Shown piece by piece: positions 54,592 to 60,221 of a DNA stretch of 64,000 bases. Below the pieces are notes generated by a model. That model did not search any database. It was given only the letters and a program-made list of their open reading frames with translations, and was not told the DNA's origin. Source of the stretch: Escherichia phage T5_ev219; sequence record NC_134263.1; one strand, 5' to 3'. The translations under genes were made by a program, and so were the position numbers. Each line of letters begins with the position of its first letter. Position 1 is the first letter of the stretch.

Positions 54592-54620
54592 TTGACATCC
54601 GCCCTCGAATGAGTTATAAT
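54592..54620 (+). promoter_or_regulatory. consensus sigma70 promoter for nrdD
   Basis: TTGACA, 17 bp, TATAAT; GAAGGAG RBS before ATG at 54650. Confidence 0.7.
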
Positions 54621-56524: not shown

Positions 56525-56554
56525 GCTAATCAGCCGGGTTGCTAGTCGACCTGG

Positions 56555-56600
56555 CTTTTATTTTATTTGCTTTCAGCCAAAAATTTATATATAATAGATT
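56555..56600 (+). promoter_or_regulatory. T5 early promoter, PN25 family
   Basis: TTGCTT, 17 bp, TATAAT; near-identical architecture to the promoter at 63225-63270. Confidence 0.7.
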
Positions 56601-56623
56601 TATAAATTTGAGAGGAGAAAGCT

Positions 56624-56905
56624 ATGAGCGAGTTGCTTCCTAAAGTAGATGTCTCCCATCTTGGAGAGCCTAGTGAAGAACGTAAGGCTCTAGATTGGTT
56701 GGGTGGATTTGATTATCGTCGTGTTGTTGCAACATGGAATGTTAAGAAAGTTAAGAAGTTTCGGGTACATTATGTAGGTAAAGACAAGTGGCTCTGGATT
56801 GATTATGAAGAATCAAAGGGGTCTACTAAGGCTGTGAAAATTTATCGTATGTATGGGTATTATTATGCTCACTGTGACAAGAATGAATTTACAGTACAGA
56901 ACTAA
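56624..56905 (+). CDS. hypothetical protein
   Basis: 93-aa ORF with GAGAGGAG RBS. Confidence 0.6.
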   Translation: MSELLPKVDVSHLGEPSEERKALDWLGGFDYRRVVATWNVKKVKKFRVHYVGKDKWLWIDYEESKGSTKAVKIYRMYGYYYAHCDKNEFTVQN

Positions 56906-56914
56906 GGAACAAGA

Positions 56915-57118
56915 ATGAAAAACGTAAAACATCTTAAATATCGCTTAATTTACAACGGACGTATGGAAACAGAAGACCTGGCCCAGTTAGCTATTAATTC
57001 TAATGAGGTTACAGTGCGTGCGCTGGCAATTGAAAAGTTGCGTGCTTCTTATGAAAATCGTGTTATGGAACTAGAGGAGAAACTTTATGGACTTCTTGAA
57101 TCAGAATCTAAAAAGTAA
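56915..57118 (+). CDS. hypothetical protein
   Basis: 67-aa ORF. Confidence 0.45.
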   Translation: MKNVKHLKYRLIYNGRMETEDLAQLAINSNEVTVRALAIEKLRASYENRVMELEEKLYGLLESESKK

Positions 57119-57281
57119 TCCAGAAAACATACTTATTGAGCAATGGAACTTTGGTTATAATGCTGGTGTAGCTACTTGTATTGCTAGATTGGATATGCTT
57201 ATTAAGCAAGAAAAGGTGCGTCCGGAGGAAGCAATTTTACTCCGAAATATTATCGAAGGATTTAAGCAAGGAATCGTATAG
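57087..57281 (+). CDS. hypothetical protein
   Basis: 64-aa ORF. Confidence 0.45.
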   Translation: MDFLNQNLKSNPENILIEQWNFGYNAGVATCIARLDMLIKQEKVRPEEAILLRNIIEGFKQGIV

Positions 57282-58105
57282 TGCGTAGATTAATTATTAT
57301 TAGCGGTGCGGGTTTGAGTGTTGAAAGTGGTGTACGAGCTTTTCGTACTGATACTGCTAGTGGTAAAGCATTGTGGGATGATTATGATCTAGAAGAAGTA
57401 TGTAATATTCATGCCTTTCGTGGTAATTTTTACCATAAAACCCATATGTTTTACAACAAGCGACGTGAAGAGCTAGAAACTGTTGAACCTAACCTTGCGC
57501 ATCTTCGTATTGGTGAGTGGTATAAGAAATATCCGGGTCAAGTAGTAAATTTGACTACTAATGTTGATGACCTTATTGAGCGTGCTGGTGTTCCTCATAA
57601 TGATATTCTCCACATTCATGGATACTTAAAGGAGGTTGTTGTAGCTGATAGCTACAATAGTAGTAATAAACGAATTATTGATGTTGGGTATAACTCTATT
57701 GACCCAGATGATTATAAATGGGCTAAACCTAATGTAATCTTCTTTGGTGAGCATGCTCCAGCGTACGCAGAAATGTACAATATTTTTGATGGTATTACTA
57801 GTCAAGATATGATCGTTGTAGTTGGTTGCTCTAATCAAGTAATTAATTTCTACTGGGAATTATTTCCTGTTCTTAATTTGACTGCTGCTAAACTTATGGT
57901 TGTTAACTACTACGATAGTGCCCTAGCGGCAGAACCAGGCTATCAAGGTATGACTCGTAGTGATATGTACCAGTTGGAAGAACGGGGTATTCCTTACTGG
58001 AGTAAAGGTGCGGTAGATGCTTTCAGTGATCCTGGTTTTATCGCTCGTATAGAAGCTCATCTAGAGGGTAGACCTTATATGCAGGGGGAACAGACATGTC
58101 CATAG
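57281..58105 (+). CDS. Sir2-family (sirtuin-like) protein lacking the zinc ribbon
   Basis: 274 aa; GAGLSVESGVRAFR, TTNVDDL, LHIHG motifs; no CxxC...CxxC. Confidence 0.6.
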   Translation: MRRLIIISGAGLSVESGVRAFRTDTASGKALWDDYDLEEVCNIHAFRGNFYHKTHMFYNKRREELETVEPNLAHLRIGEWYKKYPGQVVNLTTNVDDLIERAGVPHNDILHIHGYLKEVVVADSYNSSNKRIIDVGYNSIDPDDYKWAKPNVIFFGEHAPAYAEMYNIFDGITSQDMIVVVGCSNQVINFYWELFPVLNLTAAKLMVVNYYDSALAAEPGYQGMTRSDMYQLEERGIPYWSKGAVDAFSDPGFIARIEAHLEGRPYMQGEQTCP

Positions 58106-58278
58106 TTAAATCTGTGTATACACATCCAGATGATATATTTGTATGGGCGGATGGTAGTTGGTGCTATCGATGTGAGTTATGGGAAATGGACTATAAATCT
58201 GAGGACTATGGTGTCATATATGTTGATACGGTTGAGTATGATACGTTCTTAGAAAGGGACAAAAATGGAAATAAGTAA
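58096..58278 (+). CDS. hypothetical protein
   Basis: 60-aa ORF overlapping both neighbours. Confidence 0.4.
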   Translation: MSIVKSVYTHPDDIFVWADGSWCYRCELWEMDYKSEDYGVIYVDTVEYDTFLERDKNGNK

Positions 58279-58771
58279 TACTCCAATTATTTTTCTAGAC
58301 ATTGATGGGGTGCTTAATTCTAGCATCTCCCACCATCATGCACCTGATGATGAAAAGATTTTCTTTGGAAGTGACTGGGTTTTTAAACCGCTTCTCAAGG
58401 CTTTTCAGGACTTTATTCGTCCTTCTCCAATAATGATTGTTGGGGTATCTTCATGGTTCTCTGTCAGGAATGAGATGGAGAACGTTCAGATTATGACCGG
58501 ATTAGATCTTATCGATCGTTTTCTTGGTACAACGGATTTTACTGGTGGTGGGCTATCTAGGGGTAATTCTGTTCTTCGCTTCGTTGAAAAGCATAAGCTC
58601 AAACATTGGTGTGTGCTGGATGATGCTGGTGCTATGATGTATCAGTATCCAACGGTTATAGTCAACGGTAGAACCGGAATAAATCTTCAAGATTTAAGAG
58701 CTGTTAGCTATATGTTAGAATTTAGTCCAGATCTTGAAATGTGTAAAGCCCTACAAAAATTTAAGGTGTAA
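58265..58771 (+). CDS. HAD-superfamily phosphatase
   Basis: 168 aa; motif I FLDIDGVL, later VLDDAG. Confidence 0.55.
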   Translation: MEISNTPIIFLDIDGVLNSSISHHHAPDDEKIFFGSDWVFKPLLKAFQDFIRPSPIMIVGVSSWFSVRNEMENVQIMTGLDLIDRFLGTTDFTGGGLSRGNSVLRFVEKHKLKHWCVLDDAGAMMYQYPTVIVNGRTGINLQDLRAVSYMLEFSPDLEMCKALQKFKV

Positions 58772-58773
58772 AT

Positions 58774-59202
58774 ATGTTCAATAATATACTCTCTAAAGAG
58801 GCTAACCCGATATTGGTTAATTTTTGGCGTACTCTTCCAGCCAACCTGTACAATGAGGCTATTAATGATCTGAAAATATGGTGTGAGAATAATGAAATCT
58901 CCTTTGCTTTTAAGGGTGAGATTGAAGAAGCTCCCTGTATTGGTTTAATTGTGCAGGTAGAGGATGGTCTGGAAGAGATTGTCGGCTGGAAAGAGTTGGA
59001 TGAAATGGGGTTGGTTTTTGCATTAAACTATAAGCTATTTATGCCCAATAAACACCGTATTGTTGTTAATTATAAAACCAGTGAATCTCCTGGTTTTCAA
59101 GTTAATGAACACTACGGTTGGTCTTACTCACCGGAAGAAGTAAATGATGGTATCCAAAAACTTCGTCGTTTTGGTTATCAAATTCCCGGTTTAACTGCCT
59201 AA
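58774..59202 (+). CDS. hypothetical protein, paralog A of a tandem pair
   Basis: 142 aa; shares motifs with 59212..59604 (C[IV]G, W.EL, GL[IV].ALN..LF.P, GY.[IV]PGL). Confidence 0.55.
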   Translation: MFNNILSKEANPILVNFWRTLPANLYNEAINDLKIWCENNEISFAFKGEIEEAPCIGLIVQVEDGLEEIVGWKELDEMGLVFALNYKLFMPNKHRIVVNYKTSESPGFQVNEHYGWSYSPEEVNDGIQKLRRFGYQIPGLTA

Positions 59203-59211
59203 GGGGGCACA

Positions 59212-59604
59212 ATGGAACAAGTATATTGGCGTCAGATTGATCCTAGTTTGGTGAAGCGTGCTGAGAAGCTGCTACAACGTTGGTTGGGGGTAAGACAAGC
59301 CTCCTTCACTTTTCCGGAGCAGCAAATAGACGATCCCTGTGTTGGTGTTTTTCTATCAGGCTACGCTGGGGAATGGGAATTGGATTGGAATGAATTGTCT
59401 GCTATAGGTCTAATTGTTGCCCTAAATTTCTCTTTGTTCCATCCACGTGGTTTGGCCATATGTCGTGTGCCTGATGACGGTTGTTCGCCCTATCTTTTAC
59501 AGGTGGAAGATGATATTTGGGAGTACACTCCAGATATTCTCAAAGAAGCCAAAGAACAATTAAACCGTGTTGGGATCTATGTTCCGGGGCTAAATGATAA
59601 ATGA
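59212..59604 (+). CDS. hypothetical protein, paralog B of a tandem pair
   Basis: 130 aa; see paralog A. Confidence 0.55.
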   Translation: MEQVYWRQIDPSLVKRAEKLLQRWLGVRQASFTFPEQQIDDPCVGVFLSGYAGEWELDWNELSAIGLIVALNFSLFHPRGLAICRVPDDGCSPYLLQVEDDIWEYTPDILKEAKEQLNRVGIYVPGLNDK

Positions 59605-59625
59605 TTTTTATTAGTTGACCTCTGA

Positions 59626-59655
59626 TTACCGAGTCATTTTGGCTCGGTTTTCTCT
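59626..59655 (+). terminator. candidate rho-independent terminator
   Basis: accgag...ctcggt hairpin then TTTTCTC. Confidence 0.45.
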
Positions 59656-59695
59656 ATGCTCAAAGACACTGATAGCACCATCCGGAAAATTTTAC

Positions 59696-59724
59696 TTGCA
59701 GGATGCCCAAAATCTTGATATAAT
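59696..59724 (+). promoter_or_regulatory. sigma70 promoter with extended -10
   Basis: TTGCAG, 17 bp, TGaTATAAT. Confidence 0.55.
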
Positions 59725-60221
59725 ATTTATATTGAATTGAGAGACATTAGTAAAAATTGATTTTGCTAATTTTTCTTGTTTACAATCCGCGATACGGAAC
59801 AGTTAGGCTGCCCCATTAAGGGTTGTTTTAACTATTACTAGTGTTTATATTGCATTAGTTAATCTTCAATTAAGTGATCTGTGTACCCTGAATTCGGAAA
59901 GGTAAATCCAAACCGTGCATATTTAGCTCGTTATATAGGCAGAGTTTTATATGGGGGTGCGAACGAAAAGAGCAGCGAATGGCGGCACGTACAGTAGTCA
60001 CCTACCAATAGGATAGTGAGGACAAATAGAATCGGCTTAGCGGCCAATGACCTAGGTTCTATTCTGTATATGAGCGAAGAGAGCACAGCACTGAGATATG
60101 ATAACTTATTCATATTGTTTGATGATAATTGATGTTTACGTAAATAGTAGTAATAGTTGTTCTATTCTTTCTGAATAGTCCTAAAGAAAAGATTTCGATT
60201 AACCAACACAGGAGTATTGTT

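What the first reader, a model, noticed from the sequence alone, without database searches (positions are those of the whole stretch)
57281..59604. Sir2-like protein without zinc ribbon, followed by a HAD phosphatase and a tandem duplicated gene pair
The 274-aa protein carries the three sirtuin catalytic-core signatures (GAGxSxESGxxxFR, TxNxDxL, HG) but no CxxC...CxxC zinc module, which is the architecture of bacterial Sir2 NADase effectors rather than classical deacetylases. It sits in one plus-strand operon with a DxDGxL HAD phosphatase and two paralogous ~135-aa proteins. In a lytic phage this could be an NAD(+)/ADP-ribose-processing or anti-defence module; the function is inference only.
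Basis: partly seen in the sequence, partly recalled or inferred. Interest (0 to 1): 0.7.

Follow-up and report, generated by a model that had tools for sequence, protein, structure and literature searches.

The report
T5-phage zinc-free sirtuin and HAD phosphatase operon
This is the already-annotated early operon of T5-like phages that encodes a zinc-free, CobB-like sirtuin, a HAD phosphatase and two DUF7415 proteins; it is dispensable in the lab, and its function has been predicted (RNA repair or NAD/ADP-ribose handling) but never tested.

Summary
Window 57281-58105 encodes a 274-aa protein in Pfam SIR2 (E 9e-24) with GAGLSVESGVRAFR, TTNVDDL and HG, and no CxxC. It is followed by a HAD_SAK_2 phosphatase (DIDGVL) and two paralogous DUF7415 proteins (31% identity).

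The window is a Tequintavirus, 94-96% identical to known phages; these genes are T5.102-T5.107.

The "defence-type NADase architecture" reading is not supported:
- No SIR2_2 or PADLOC match.
- The best sequence and fold matches are E. coli CobB, archaeal Sir2-Af1 and SIRT5.
- The small domain is kept and only its cysteines are lost.
- The class-III Y..R motif is invariant.

Zinc-free phage sirtuins (2016) and this exact sirtuin + HAD neighbourhood (Iyer et al. 2022, predicted KptA-like RNA 2'-phosphate removal) are already published, with no experiments.

Related sirtuins (47-63% identity) sit in RNA-ligase/kinase operons. Homologues of the HAD head NARP1-type NAD+-rebuilding operons, which points to ADP-ribose-phosphate as its substrate. 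Phage DT57C has deleted the sirtuin and the HAD, and T5 knock-downs show no defect, so the module is accessory.

Already known in kind; modest interest.

The parts
56532..56556 (+). Terminator-like hairpin after nrdD; upstream boundary of the unit
   Evidence: 10-bp stem, 6 GC pairs, T-run. BF23 has a terminator annotated at the equivalent place.
56567..56595 (+). Putative sigma-70 early promoter, TTGCTT-17 nt-TATAAT, followed by RBS GAGAGGAG
   Evidence: Read directly from the sequence. The scan missed it because only 3 of 6 bases match in the -35 hexamer. BF23 annotates a hypothetical early promoter at the same place.
56624..56905 (+). 93-aa ORF of unknown function (phrog_7953)
   Evidence: Present in a subset of T5-like loci.
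56915..57118 (+). 67-aa ORF of unknown function (phrog_5236, equivalent to T5.101)
57087..57281 (+). 64-aa ORF of unknown function (phrog_5827); its stop codon overlaps the sirtuin start
57281..58105 (+). Zinc-free CobB-lineage sirtuin (equivalent to T5.102), 274 aa. Predicted catalytic residues H113, N94 and D96; class-III-type Y58 and R61
   Evidence: Pfam SIR2 E 9e-24. CobB 1s5p E 2.4e-17. AF2 model pLDDT 86.8. Foldseek best match CobB, TM 0.85 on the target. Family invariants.
57623..57724 (+). Segment encoding the small-domain insert (aa 115-148) that carries CxxC...CxxC in relatives and has no Cys here
   Evidence: Predicted strands at aa 114-122, 131-134 and 147-152.
58096..58278 (+). 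60-aa ORF (phrog_5116; T5.103 and T5.104 are two copies of it). It overlaps the sirtuin gene by 10 nt and the HAD gene by 14 nt
   Evidence: A homologue is present in Sugarlandvirus.
58265..58771 (+). HAD-superfamily phosphatase, HAD_SAK_2 family (equivalent to T5.105). Motif residues D12/D14, S62/S63, R99 and D119/D120 are invariant
   Evidence: Pfam E 1.8e-20. Alignment A3. Homologues sit in NARP1-type operons.
58774..59202 (+). DUF7415 protein a (equivalent to T5.106), 142 aa
59212..59604 (+). DUF7415 protein b (equivalent to T5.107), 130 aa. Its two halves each match DUF7415
59628..59648 (+). Terminator-like hairpin that ends the unit
   Evidence: 9-bp stem, 5 GC pairs. BF23 has a terminator annotated at the equivalent place.

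Best explanation
SHOWN. This is the conserved early accessory operon of T5-like phages (T5.100-T5.107). Its sirtuin belongs to a phage-specific, zinc-free offshoot of classical CobB/SIRT5-type sirtuins. It keeps every residue needed to bind NAD+ and to cleave off nicotinamide.

INFERRED, following Iyer, Burroughs and Aravind 2022. The sirtuin most likely works like KptA/Tpt1, not as a lysine deacylase. In that scheme a phosphate on damaged RNA (a 2'-phosphate left after a 2',3'-cyclic end is opened) attacks C1'' of NAD+. Nicotinamide leaves, and H113 helps the ADP-ribose 2''-OH displace the RNA. The products are repaired RNA and ADP-ribose cyclic phosphate.

The adjacent HAD phosphatase would then remove the remaining phosphate, either from the ADP-ribose-phosphate by-product or from an RNA end.

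The small phrog_5116 protein and the two DUF7415 proteins have no recognisable catalytic features and are probably binding or regulatory partners.

The module is not needed on laboratory E. coli. It would matter only on hosts that damage RNA or NAD+.
For: Identity:
- Pfam SIR2 E 9e-24.
- CobB, Sir2-Af1 and SIRT5 are the best hits by sequence and by fold.
- G9, A10, G11, S13, F21, R22, N94, D96, H113, G114, F154, F155 and E157 are invariant in 32 family members. H113, N94 and G114 are invariant in 137 broader representatives.

Context:
- Sirtuins 47-63% identical to this one lie in 13 of 62 IMG/VR loci, and in L003, immediately downstream of Metallophos - T4-type RNA ligase 1 - (cREC) - AAA_33 kinase and upstream of an ATP-dependent DNA ligase. 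In L003 the start and stop codons of neighbouring genes overlap.
- 28 of the 32 T5-like loci pair the sirtuin with the HAD. A diverged contig keeps both downstream of nrdD in a different gene order.
- The HAD belongs to Pfam HAD_SAK_2, the 'RNA repair' HAD family, and its catalytic motifs are invariant.
- HAD homologues at 37-41% identity head Prs-like/NAPRTase-like (NARP1-type) operons. In those operons ADP-ribose-1''-phosphate is the known problem metabolite (bioRxiv 10.64898/2026.01.28.702374). It is also the downstream product of the Tpt1 pathway.
- The same prediction for this neighbourhood is published (PMC9503650 section 3.7.3).

Accessory status:
- Phage DT57C carries a sirtuin/HAD deletion chimera and is viable.
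- T5.102 and T5.105 were 'Not Fit' in the CRISPRi-ART screen.
Against: - No biochemical data exist for any phage sirtuin.
- No homologue of the RNA ligase, polynucleotide kinase or cREC queries was found in the 64-kb window or in BF23 1-59 kb (the rest of the genome was not searched). A complete RNA heal-and-seal pathway would therefore need host enzymes.
- Every conserved residue is equally what a lysine deacylase needs. This includes the class-III Y58/R61 pair and the small residue C41 at the CobB A76 position.
- Three or four T5-like lineages keep the sirtuin without the HAD, including Sugarlandvirus. ChuuTotoro-like phages keep the HAD without a nearby sirtuin. The two are therefore not obligate partners.
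- 17 of 62 sirtuin loci show none of the partners I searched for.
- Gene order in related phages is inherited, so the contexts are few independent events.
Confidence: 0.4

Rival explanations
1. The sirtuin is an ordinary NAD+-dependent protein lysine deacylase of the CobB/SIRT5 type, with a preference for acidic acyl groups such as succinyl or malonyl. It would reset acylation of host or phage proteins early in infection. The HAD and DUF7415 genes would be unrelated neighbours.
For: - The closest characterised relatives by sequence, profile and fold are all deacylases.
- The class-III specificity pair Y58/R61 is invariant in the family, and the small residue C41 aligns with CobB A76.
- The FFGE loop and V187, which line the acyl-lysine tunnel, are conserved.
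- A Zn-bearing relative at 45% identity (P0136) is a cellular gene two genes downstream of a lipoate-protein ligase gene.
- This is the view taken for KVP40-type phage sirtuins in PMC5107563.
Against: - The host already has CobB.
- The protein scores far below the curated CobB equivalog cut-offs (97 bits against 243, 87 against 320).
- Q is replaced by T in the TQNxD motif throughout the zinc-free clade.
- Repeated operonic linkage to RNA ligase, kinase, phosphoesterase and HAD genes is not explained by this reading.
Confidence: 0.3
2. The pair is an NAD+/ADP-ribose counter-defence module that has nothing to do with RNA. The HAD would be a non-homologous analogue of the Macro-domain phosphatase Adpp and would convert ADP-ribose-1''-phosphate, or another phosphorylated NAD+ breakdown product made by host immunity, to ADP-ribose. 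The sirtuin would act on an NAD-derived metabolite or signal.
For: - HAD homologues are the first gene of Prs-like/NAPRTase-like operons in three ~150-kb phage contigs.
- That gene pair defines NARP1.
- 15% of NARP1 operons carry an ADPR-1''-phosphate phosphatase that defeats RES-type defence.
- The HAD catalytic motifs and a GGG..RG loop are invariant across both contexts.
- The sirtuin and the HAD were lost together in DT57C.
Against: - No Prs or NAPRTase homologue was found in the window or in BF23 1-59 kb, so there is nothing to feed with ADP-ribose.
- No known sirtuin chemistry rebuilds NAD+ or degrades ADPR signals.
- The substrate assignment rests on gene neighbourhood alone.
Confidence: 0.2
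3. One reading: a defence-type Sir2 NADase that simply destroys NAD+, for example for host shut-off or superinfection exclusion.
For: The protein has no zinc ligands and an intact NAD+ site. Sirtuins can hydrolyse NAD+ slowly.
Against: - No SIR2_2 or PADLOC match.
- No defence Sir2 among the top 50 fold matches.
- No sensor or partner domain.
- T5-like phages replicate with an NAD+-dependent DNA ligase (own knowledge), so NAD+ depletion would harm the phage itself.
- Loss of the gene has no detected cost.
Confidence: 0.05

Closest known systems
E. coli CobB / human SIRT5 (class III sirtuin deacylases)
   Same: It has the same fold (Foldseek E 2e-17, TM 0.85 normalised to CobB). It shares the NAD+ motifs, the catalytic His and the Y..R pair.
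   Different: Identity is only about 24%, and the protein scores below the curated CobB cut-offs. It has no zinc ligands, TTNVD instead of TQNID, and about 60 extra C-terminal residues. Its substrate is unknown.
Phage 'RNA-repair' sirtuin clade of Iyer, Burroughs and Aravind 2022 (PMC9503650), type 3 neighbourhood typified by Escherichia phage SP15
   Same: It is the same gene and the same neighbourhood, a sirtuin plus a Swiss-army-knife-type HAD. SP15 is among the hits with a DUF7415 protein at 94.6% identity. The clade link to sirtuins in RNA-ligase operons is confirmed.
   Different: Nothing differs structurally. That paper does not discuss the phrog_5116 or DUF7415 genes, the HAD-NARP1 linkage, or the natural deletion in DT57C.
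KptA/Tpt1 RNA 2'-phosphotransferase with Poa1p/Adpp ADPR-1''-phosphate phosphatase
   Same: The proposed chemistry is the same: an NAD+-dependent phosphate acceptor reaction followed by dephosphorylation of an ADP-ribose phosphate.
   Different: The folds are unrelated: sirtuin instead of an ART-fold enzyme, and HAD instead of a Macro domain. The resemblance is by analogy and gene context only, and is untested.
Defence-associated Sir2 NADases (ThsA, DSR1/DSR2, SIR2-HerA, SIR2-APAZ)
   Same: They share the Sir2 Rossmann core and the lack of a zinc ribbon.
   Different: This protein gives no profile or fold match to them. It has no sensor domain and is phage-encoded as a standalone 274-aa protein.
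Zinc-free Sir2/CobB of KVP40-like Vibrio phages (PMC5107563)
   Same: It is a phage sirtuin of about 40% identity that also lacks zinc ligands.
   Different: The phage family and the neighbouring genes differ. In KVP40-like phages the sirtuin accompanies NAD+ salvage genes.

Membership tests
Sirtuin superfamily (Pfam SIR2, PF02146) | Profile match above the curated threshold | tested here: met
   84.8 bits against a cut-off of 24, covering profile positions 1-178 of 180.
Sirtuin superfamily (Pfam SIR2, PF02146) | NAD+-binding motifs GAGxS...FR and (T/S)QNxD, and the catalytic HG | tested here: met
   GAGLSVESGVRAFR at 9-22, TTNVDDL at 92-98 (Q replaced by T) and H113-G114. These are invariant in the family.
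Sirtuin superfamily (Pfam SIR2, PF02146) | Cys4 zinc-binding small domain | tested here: not met
   There is no Cys between aa 115 and 148. The segment has normal length and is predicted as beta strands. About 55 of 137 representative relatives likewise lack the cysteines.
Sirtuin superfamily (Pfam SIR2, PF02146) | NAD+-dependent catalytic activity | not testable with these tools
   This needs purified protein.
Class III sirtuins (CobB/SIRT5) | Closest characterised relatives by sequence and by fold | tested here: met
   CobB, Sir2-Af1 and SIRT5 head both lists.
Class III sirtuins (CobB/SIRT5) | Y..R acidic-acyl recognition pair and a small residue at the SIRT5 A86 / CobB A76 position | tested here: met
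   Y58 and R61 align with the CobB FYNARR motif, and C41 aligns with the Ala of CobB VEDVATPEGF. All three are invariant in 32 sequences. The roles of these residues are from own knowledge of SIRT5 and CobB.
Class III sirtuins (CobB/SIRT5) | Score above the NCBIfam CobB equivalog or subfamily cut-offs | tested here: not met
   97 bits against 243 for NF001753, and 87 against 320 for NF040867.
Defence-associated Sir2 NADase effectors | Match to SIR2_2 or to PADLOC defence models | tested here: not met
   Pfam at E<=1 gives only PF02146. PADLOC gives nothing at E<=1.
Defence-associated Sir2 NADase effectors | Fused or adjacent sensor or partner (SLOG, HerA, pAgo, TPR and similar) | tested here: not met
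   The protein is a standalone 274 aa. Its neighbours are a small ORF, the HAD and the DUF7415 genes.
Defence-associated Sir2 NADase effectors | Structural similarity to ThsA, DSR2 or SIR2-HerA | tested here: not met
   None appears among the top 50 Foldseek PDB matches.
Phage RNA-repair-associated sirtuin clade (PMC9503650) | Conserved neighbourhood with RNA-end-processing enzymes | tested here: met
   HAD_SAK_2 lies two genes downstream here. Relatives at 47-63% identity lie in RNA-ligase/kinase/Metallophos operons.
Phage RNA-repair-associated sirtuin clade (PMC9503650) | RNA 2'-phosphate-dependent NAD+ consumption | not testable with these tools
   This is a prediction only. No experiment was found in the literature.
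HAD superfamily, HAD_SAK_2 (PF18143) | Profile match and the four HAD catalytic motifs | tested here: met
   74.2 bits against a cut-off of 27.5. D12/D14, S62/S63, R99 and D119/D120 are invariant in 14 sequences down to 37% identity.
NARP1-associated ADPR-1''-phosphate phosphatase (Adpp) | Macro domain | tested here: not met
   The protein is HAD-fold by profile, so it could only be an analogue, not a member.
NARP1-associated ADPR-1''-phosphate phosphatase (Adpp) | Location inside an Adps-Namat operon | tested here: not met
   No Prs or NAPRTase homologue is present in the window. The feature is met only for homologues at 37-41% identity in L069, L071 and L072.
DUF7415 (PF24187) | Profile match | tested here: met
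   E 6e-33 and 1e-30 for the two proteins. The N- and C-terminal halves of protein b match separately, E 3e-16 and 3e-13.

The most novel reading that the evidence does not exclude
The phage HAD_SAK_2 protein may be a HAD-fold analogue of the Macro-domain enzyme Adpp: an ADP-ribose-1''-phosphate (or ADP-ribose cyclic phosphate) phosphatase. In ~150-kb phages it would feed NARP1. In T5-like phages it would clear the by-product of a sirtuin that acts as a Tpt1-like RNA 2'-phosphotransferase. That would be the first sirtuin shown to use a phosphate rather than an acyl-lysine as nucleophile. It would link RNA repair and NAD+ counter-defence through one shared metabolite.
Probability: 0.2. Interest if true: 0.7.

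Novelty: already known. Interest (0 to 1): 0.3.

Why it matters
As a sequence feature this is ordinary. The genes are T5.102-T5.107, present in hundreds of sequenced T5-like phages, annotated as Sir2-like since the T5 genome paper, and already interpreted in a 2022 comparative-genomics paper.

The open point is biochemical, because no phage sirtuin has been assayed. If the KptA-like prediction holds, it would widen sirtuin chemistry from acyl-lysine to phosphate nucleophiles.

The HAD-NARP1 linkage found here also offers a concrete candidate substrate, ADP-ribose phosphates. That connects the module to the current work on the NAD+ arms race between phages and bacteria.

T5 and its natural deletion variant DT57C are tractable systems in which to test this.

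Tried and rejected
- **Defence-type Sir2:** rejected. No PADLOC or SIR2_2 match, and no defence Sir2 among the fold matches.
- **Pseudo-enzyme:** rejected. All catalytic and NAD+-binding residues are invariant.
- **"No zinc ribbon" as a domain deletion:** rejected. The insert has normal length, is predicted as beta strands, and shares the (D/N)(I/V)GY and KPNVVFFGE motifs with Zn-bearing relatives.
- **Internal repeat in DUF7415:** hhalign of the two halves was negative (probability 3.7%), but each half matches the Pfam model on its own, so I accept two repeats.
- **HAD against solved structures by sequence:** no hit at E<=10. NCBIfam gives only a weak HAD-IIIA N-terminal match.
- **Published experiments on phage sirtuins:** none found.
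- **RNA ligase, kinase, cREC, Prs or NAPRTase in the T5-like genome:** none found in the window or in BF23 1-59 kb. The late half of the genome was not searched directly. A tblastn of the NAPRTase-like protein showed no ~110-kb T5-like record among 30 sampled hits.
- **Annotations 'exonuclease' and 'tail tube protein' for the DUF7415 genes, and 'Sir2' for the HAD gene, in some records:** unsupported by any profile.
Full report
**What the window is.** The region 56600-59800 is 94-96% identical at the DNA level to many Tequintavirus genomes (VEc33, BF23, SP01, OSYSP and others); 527 phage records match. In BF23 the equivalent stretch is annotated as nrdD, terminator, early promoter, three small ORFs, 'Sir2-like protein', a small ORF, three hypothetical proteins, terminator, then the replication origin binding protein. 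In the T5 annotation table used by the CRISPRi-ART paper (PMC11879866) the genes are T5.102 (Sir2), T5.103/T5.104 (two phrog_5116 copies), T5.105 (phrog_1818, the HAD) and T5.106/T5.107 (phrog_2502, DUF7415).

**Check of the observation.**
- The 274-aa protein has GAGLSVESGVRAFR (aa 9-22), TTNVDDL (92-98) and HG (113-114). It has only three cysteines (41, 183, 273) and no CxxC.
- Pfam places it in SIR2 (E 9e-24). The next enzyme is in HAD_SAK_2 (E 1.8e-20, DIDGVL at 12-17), and both ~135-aa proteins are in DUF7415.
- The two DUF7415 proteins are 31% identical over their full length (E 5e-19). Each half of protein b matches the DUF7415 model on its own, so the locus holds four copies of that domain.
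- The unit is bracketed by terminator-like hairpins at 56532-56556 and 59628-59648. A TTGCTT-17-TATAAT promoter-like site sits at 56567-56595.

**What kind of sirtuin it is.** The evidence points the other way.
- Pfam at E<=1 returns only classical SIR2, and PADLOC returns nothing.
- The best solved relatives by sequence are E. coli CobB (E 2.4e-17), archaeal Sir2-Af1/Af2 and SIRT5.
- A confident AF2 model (pLDDT 86.8) matches CobB best (Foldseek E 2e-17, TM 0.85 on the target), followed by Sir2-Af1 and SIRT5. No defence Sir2 is in the top 50.
- The stretch between HG and KPNVIFFGE has the usual length (34 residues) and is predicted as three strands, so the small domain is kept and only its metal ligands are missing.
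- A search of 1.84 billion representative proteins found 2802 relatives. The closest ones lack cysteines in this insert, while those at about 35-46% identity carry canonical CxxC...CxxC and share the flanking (D/N)(I/V)GY and KPNVVFFGE motifs.
- Of 137 full-length representatives, about 55 are cysteine-free and about 82 are zinc-type.
- One zinc-type relative (P0136, 45% identity) sits in a cellular, Mollicutes-like contig, two genes downstream of a lipoate-protein ligase gene.

Loss of the ligands goes with a Q-to-T change in the TQNxD motif. Within 32 family members H113, N94, D96, the GAG loop, F21/R22 and FFxE are invariant. So are Y58 and R61, which align with the CobB FYNARR motif, the class-III pair that binds acidic acyl groups in SIRT5 and CobB (own knowledge). 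C41 aligns with CobB A76. The protein is therefore a probably active, zinc-free descendant of classical deacylase-type sirtuins. It falls well below NCBI's CobB equivalog cut-offs, so it should not be called CobB.

**What is already published.**
- PMC5107563 (2016) described zinc-free Sir2/CobB proteins in KVP40-like Vibrio phages and listed T5 among the carriers.
- PMC9503650 (Iyer, Burroughs, Aravind 2022) states that most viral sirtuins form a distinct clade found in three neighbourhood types.
[quoted passage not shown] That paper proposes the sirtuin removes RNA 2'-phosphates in the manner of KptA.
- SP15 is a close relative of this window.
- I found no experimental study of any phage sirtuin.

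**Independent check of the contexts.** A scan of IMG/VR returned 62 sirtuin loci, which I screened with the window's proteins and with the neighbours seen in a Mydovirus-like contig.
- **T5-like, 32 loci:** nrdD upstream and the origin-binding protein downstream. 28 of them carry sirtuin - (phrog_5116) - HAD - DUF7415a - DUF7415b.
- **HAD-less T5-like loci:** L060, L063 and L064 lack the HAD. In Sugarlandvirus IME260 the order is sirtuin - phrog_5116 homologue - DUF7415a - DUF7415b with no HAD.
- **RNA-ligase type, 13 loci (sirtuin 47-63% identical):** Metallophos, T4-type RNA ligase 1, AAA_33 kinase and often cREC lie within 0.4-3.7 kb upstream (cREC further away in one locus), and an ATP-dependent DNA ligase lies downstream. 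In L003 the genes overlap end to end.
- **No partner found, 17 loci:** none of these partners is present.
- **Shuffled order:** one diverged 7.7-kb contig has nrdD - 79 aa - HAD - 117 aa - 108 aa - sirtuin, so the pair persists in a different order.

**A lead on the HAD.** The HAD's catalytic motifs are invariant down to 37% identity: D12/D14, S62/S63, R99, D119/D120 and a GGG..RG loop. Homologues at 37-41% identity occur in three ~150-kb phage contigs as the first gene of an operon that continues with a Prs-like and a NAPRTase-like gene. One of these contigs is Serratia phage ChuuTotoro.

That adjacent pair is how NARP1 (Adps + Namat), which rebuilds NAD+ from ADP-ribose and nicotinamide, was defined. 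A January 2026 preprint reports three related findings:
- RES-type defence converts NAD+ to ADP-ribose-1''-phosphate.
- NARP1 cannot use that product.
- 15% of NARP1 operons add a Macro-domain phosphatase (Adpp, related to yeast Poa1p) to remove the phosphate.

Poa1p is also the enzyme that clears the Tpt1 by-product in yeast tRNA splicing. Both contexts of the HAD, next to a putative Tpt1-like sirtuin and at the head of NARP1-type operons, therefore point to an ADP-ribose phosphate as its substrate. This is inference from gene neighbourhood only. The window and BF23 1-59 kb contain no Prs, NAPRTase, RNA ligase, kinase or cREC homologue.

**Dispensability.** In the T5 CRISPRi-ART screen (PMC11879866, supplementary file 16) T5.102 to T5.106 were 'Not Fit'. 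T5.107 (DUF7415 b) was 'Fit' (p 0.02), one of 17 such genes. The screen is insensitive, since it also called the origin-binding protein 'Not Fit'.

The natural case is stronger. Phage DT57C carries a 90-aa 'defective sir2' ORF that is a chimera of sirtuin residues ~171-212 and the last 41 residues of the HAD. Both enzymes and the small ORF are therefore deleted, while both DUF7415 genes are intact. The module is accessory, and the two enzymes were lost together.

The DT57C-type remnant also seems to explain phrog_18062. That PHROG family is labelled 'Sir2' but matches the HAD's C-terminal half, which would account for the HAD being annotated as a second Sir2 in RefSeq records.

**Mechanism and odds.**
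- **Shown:** identity, conservation, context and dispensability.
- **Inferred:** the chemistry.

| Reading | Probability |
|---|---|
| Published KptA-like reading, with the HAD acting on the ADP-ribose phosphate by-product or on RNA ends | about 0.4 |
| Plain CobB/SIRT5-like lysine deacylase | about 0.3 |
| RNA-independent NAD+/ADPR counter-defence role | about 0.2 |
| Defence-type NADase | about 0.05 |

The conserved residues cannot separate the first two readings, because both reactions need the same NAD+ site and the same histidine.

**Verdict.** The 'NADase-effector architecture' inference is not supported. The feature is already known and already interpreted in the literature. Residual interest lies in the untested biochemistry and in the HAD-NARP1 link.

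Noticed in passing
window 58265-58771; phrog_18062; L077 3480-3752 (phage DT57C): PHROG family phrog_18062 is labelled 'Sir2' but matches the C-terminal half of the HAD protein. This probably explains why RefSeq records list two 'Sir2' genes here. The DT57C 'defective sir2' ORF is a deletion chimera of sirtuin aa ~171-212 and HAD aa 128-168, which may be the source of the label.
   Followed up: yes
L069 7001-10217, L071 6001-9519, L072 6001-9569: HAD_SAK_2 homologues (37-41% identical to the window's HAD) are the first gene of Prs-like/NAPRTase-like (NARP1-type) operons in ~150-kb phages. This suggests a HAD-fold analogue of the Macro-domain ADPR-1''-phosphate phosphatase Adpp.
   Followed up: partly
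window 59212-59604 (aa ~56-125); L005 3995-4237: Single-domain DUF7415 homologues occur in T4-like phages. In Klebsiella phage ValerieMcCarty01 one lies exactly between nrdD and nrdG and is annotated 'MazG-like'. In T5-like phages the DUF7415 pair also lies downstream of nrdD.
   Followed up: partly
window 59212-59604 (equivalent to T5.107): The second DUF7415 gene was one of only 17 'Fit' genes in the T5 CRISPRi-ART screen (p 0.02), while the sirtuin, the HAD and the first DUF7415 gene were not. DT57C keeps both DUF7415 genes although it has deleted the two enzymes.
   Followed up: partly
window 58096-58278: A 60-aa ORF (phrog_5116) overlaps both the sirtuin and the HAD genes. It is conserved as far as Sugarlandvirus, is duplicated in T5 (T5.103 and T5.104), and is absent from a few T5-like loci.
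   Followed up: partly
window 54592-54620: A perfect-consensus sigma-70 promoter (TTGACA-17-TATAAT) lies upstream of nrdD. The BF23 record marks a promoter at this place as 'absent in T5 phage'.
   Followed up: no
window 57281-58105, aa 93; alignment of 137 representatives: The Gln of the sirtuin TQNxD motif is replaced by Thr, and this change correlates with loss of the zinc cysteines across the family. Among sequences that keep Y..R, 28 zinc-free sequences have T, against 49 zinc-type sequences with Q.
   Followed up: partly
L003 592-3133 and 14214-14720: In Mydovirus-like phages the sirtuin/RNA-ligase operon lies 5-8 kb from a NARP1-type Prs/NAPRTase pair and about 6 kb from a NADAR-domain gene. 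Several NAD+/ADP-ribose functions are clustered there.
   Followed up: no
window 59650-60220: A ~570-bp non-coding gap separates the operon's terminator from the origin-binding protein gene. Some relatives (JLBYU40) carry an HNH endonuclease gene at this place.
   Followed up: no
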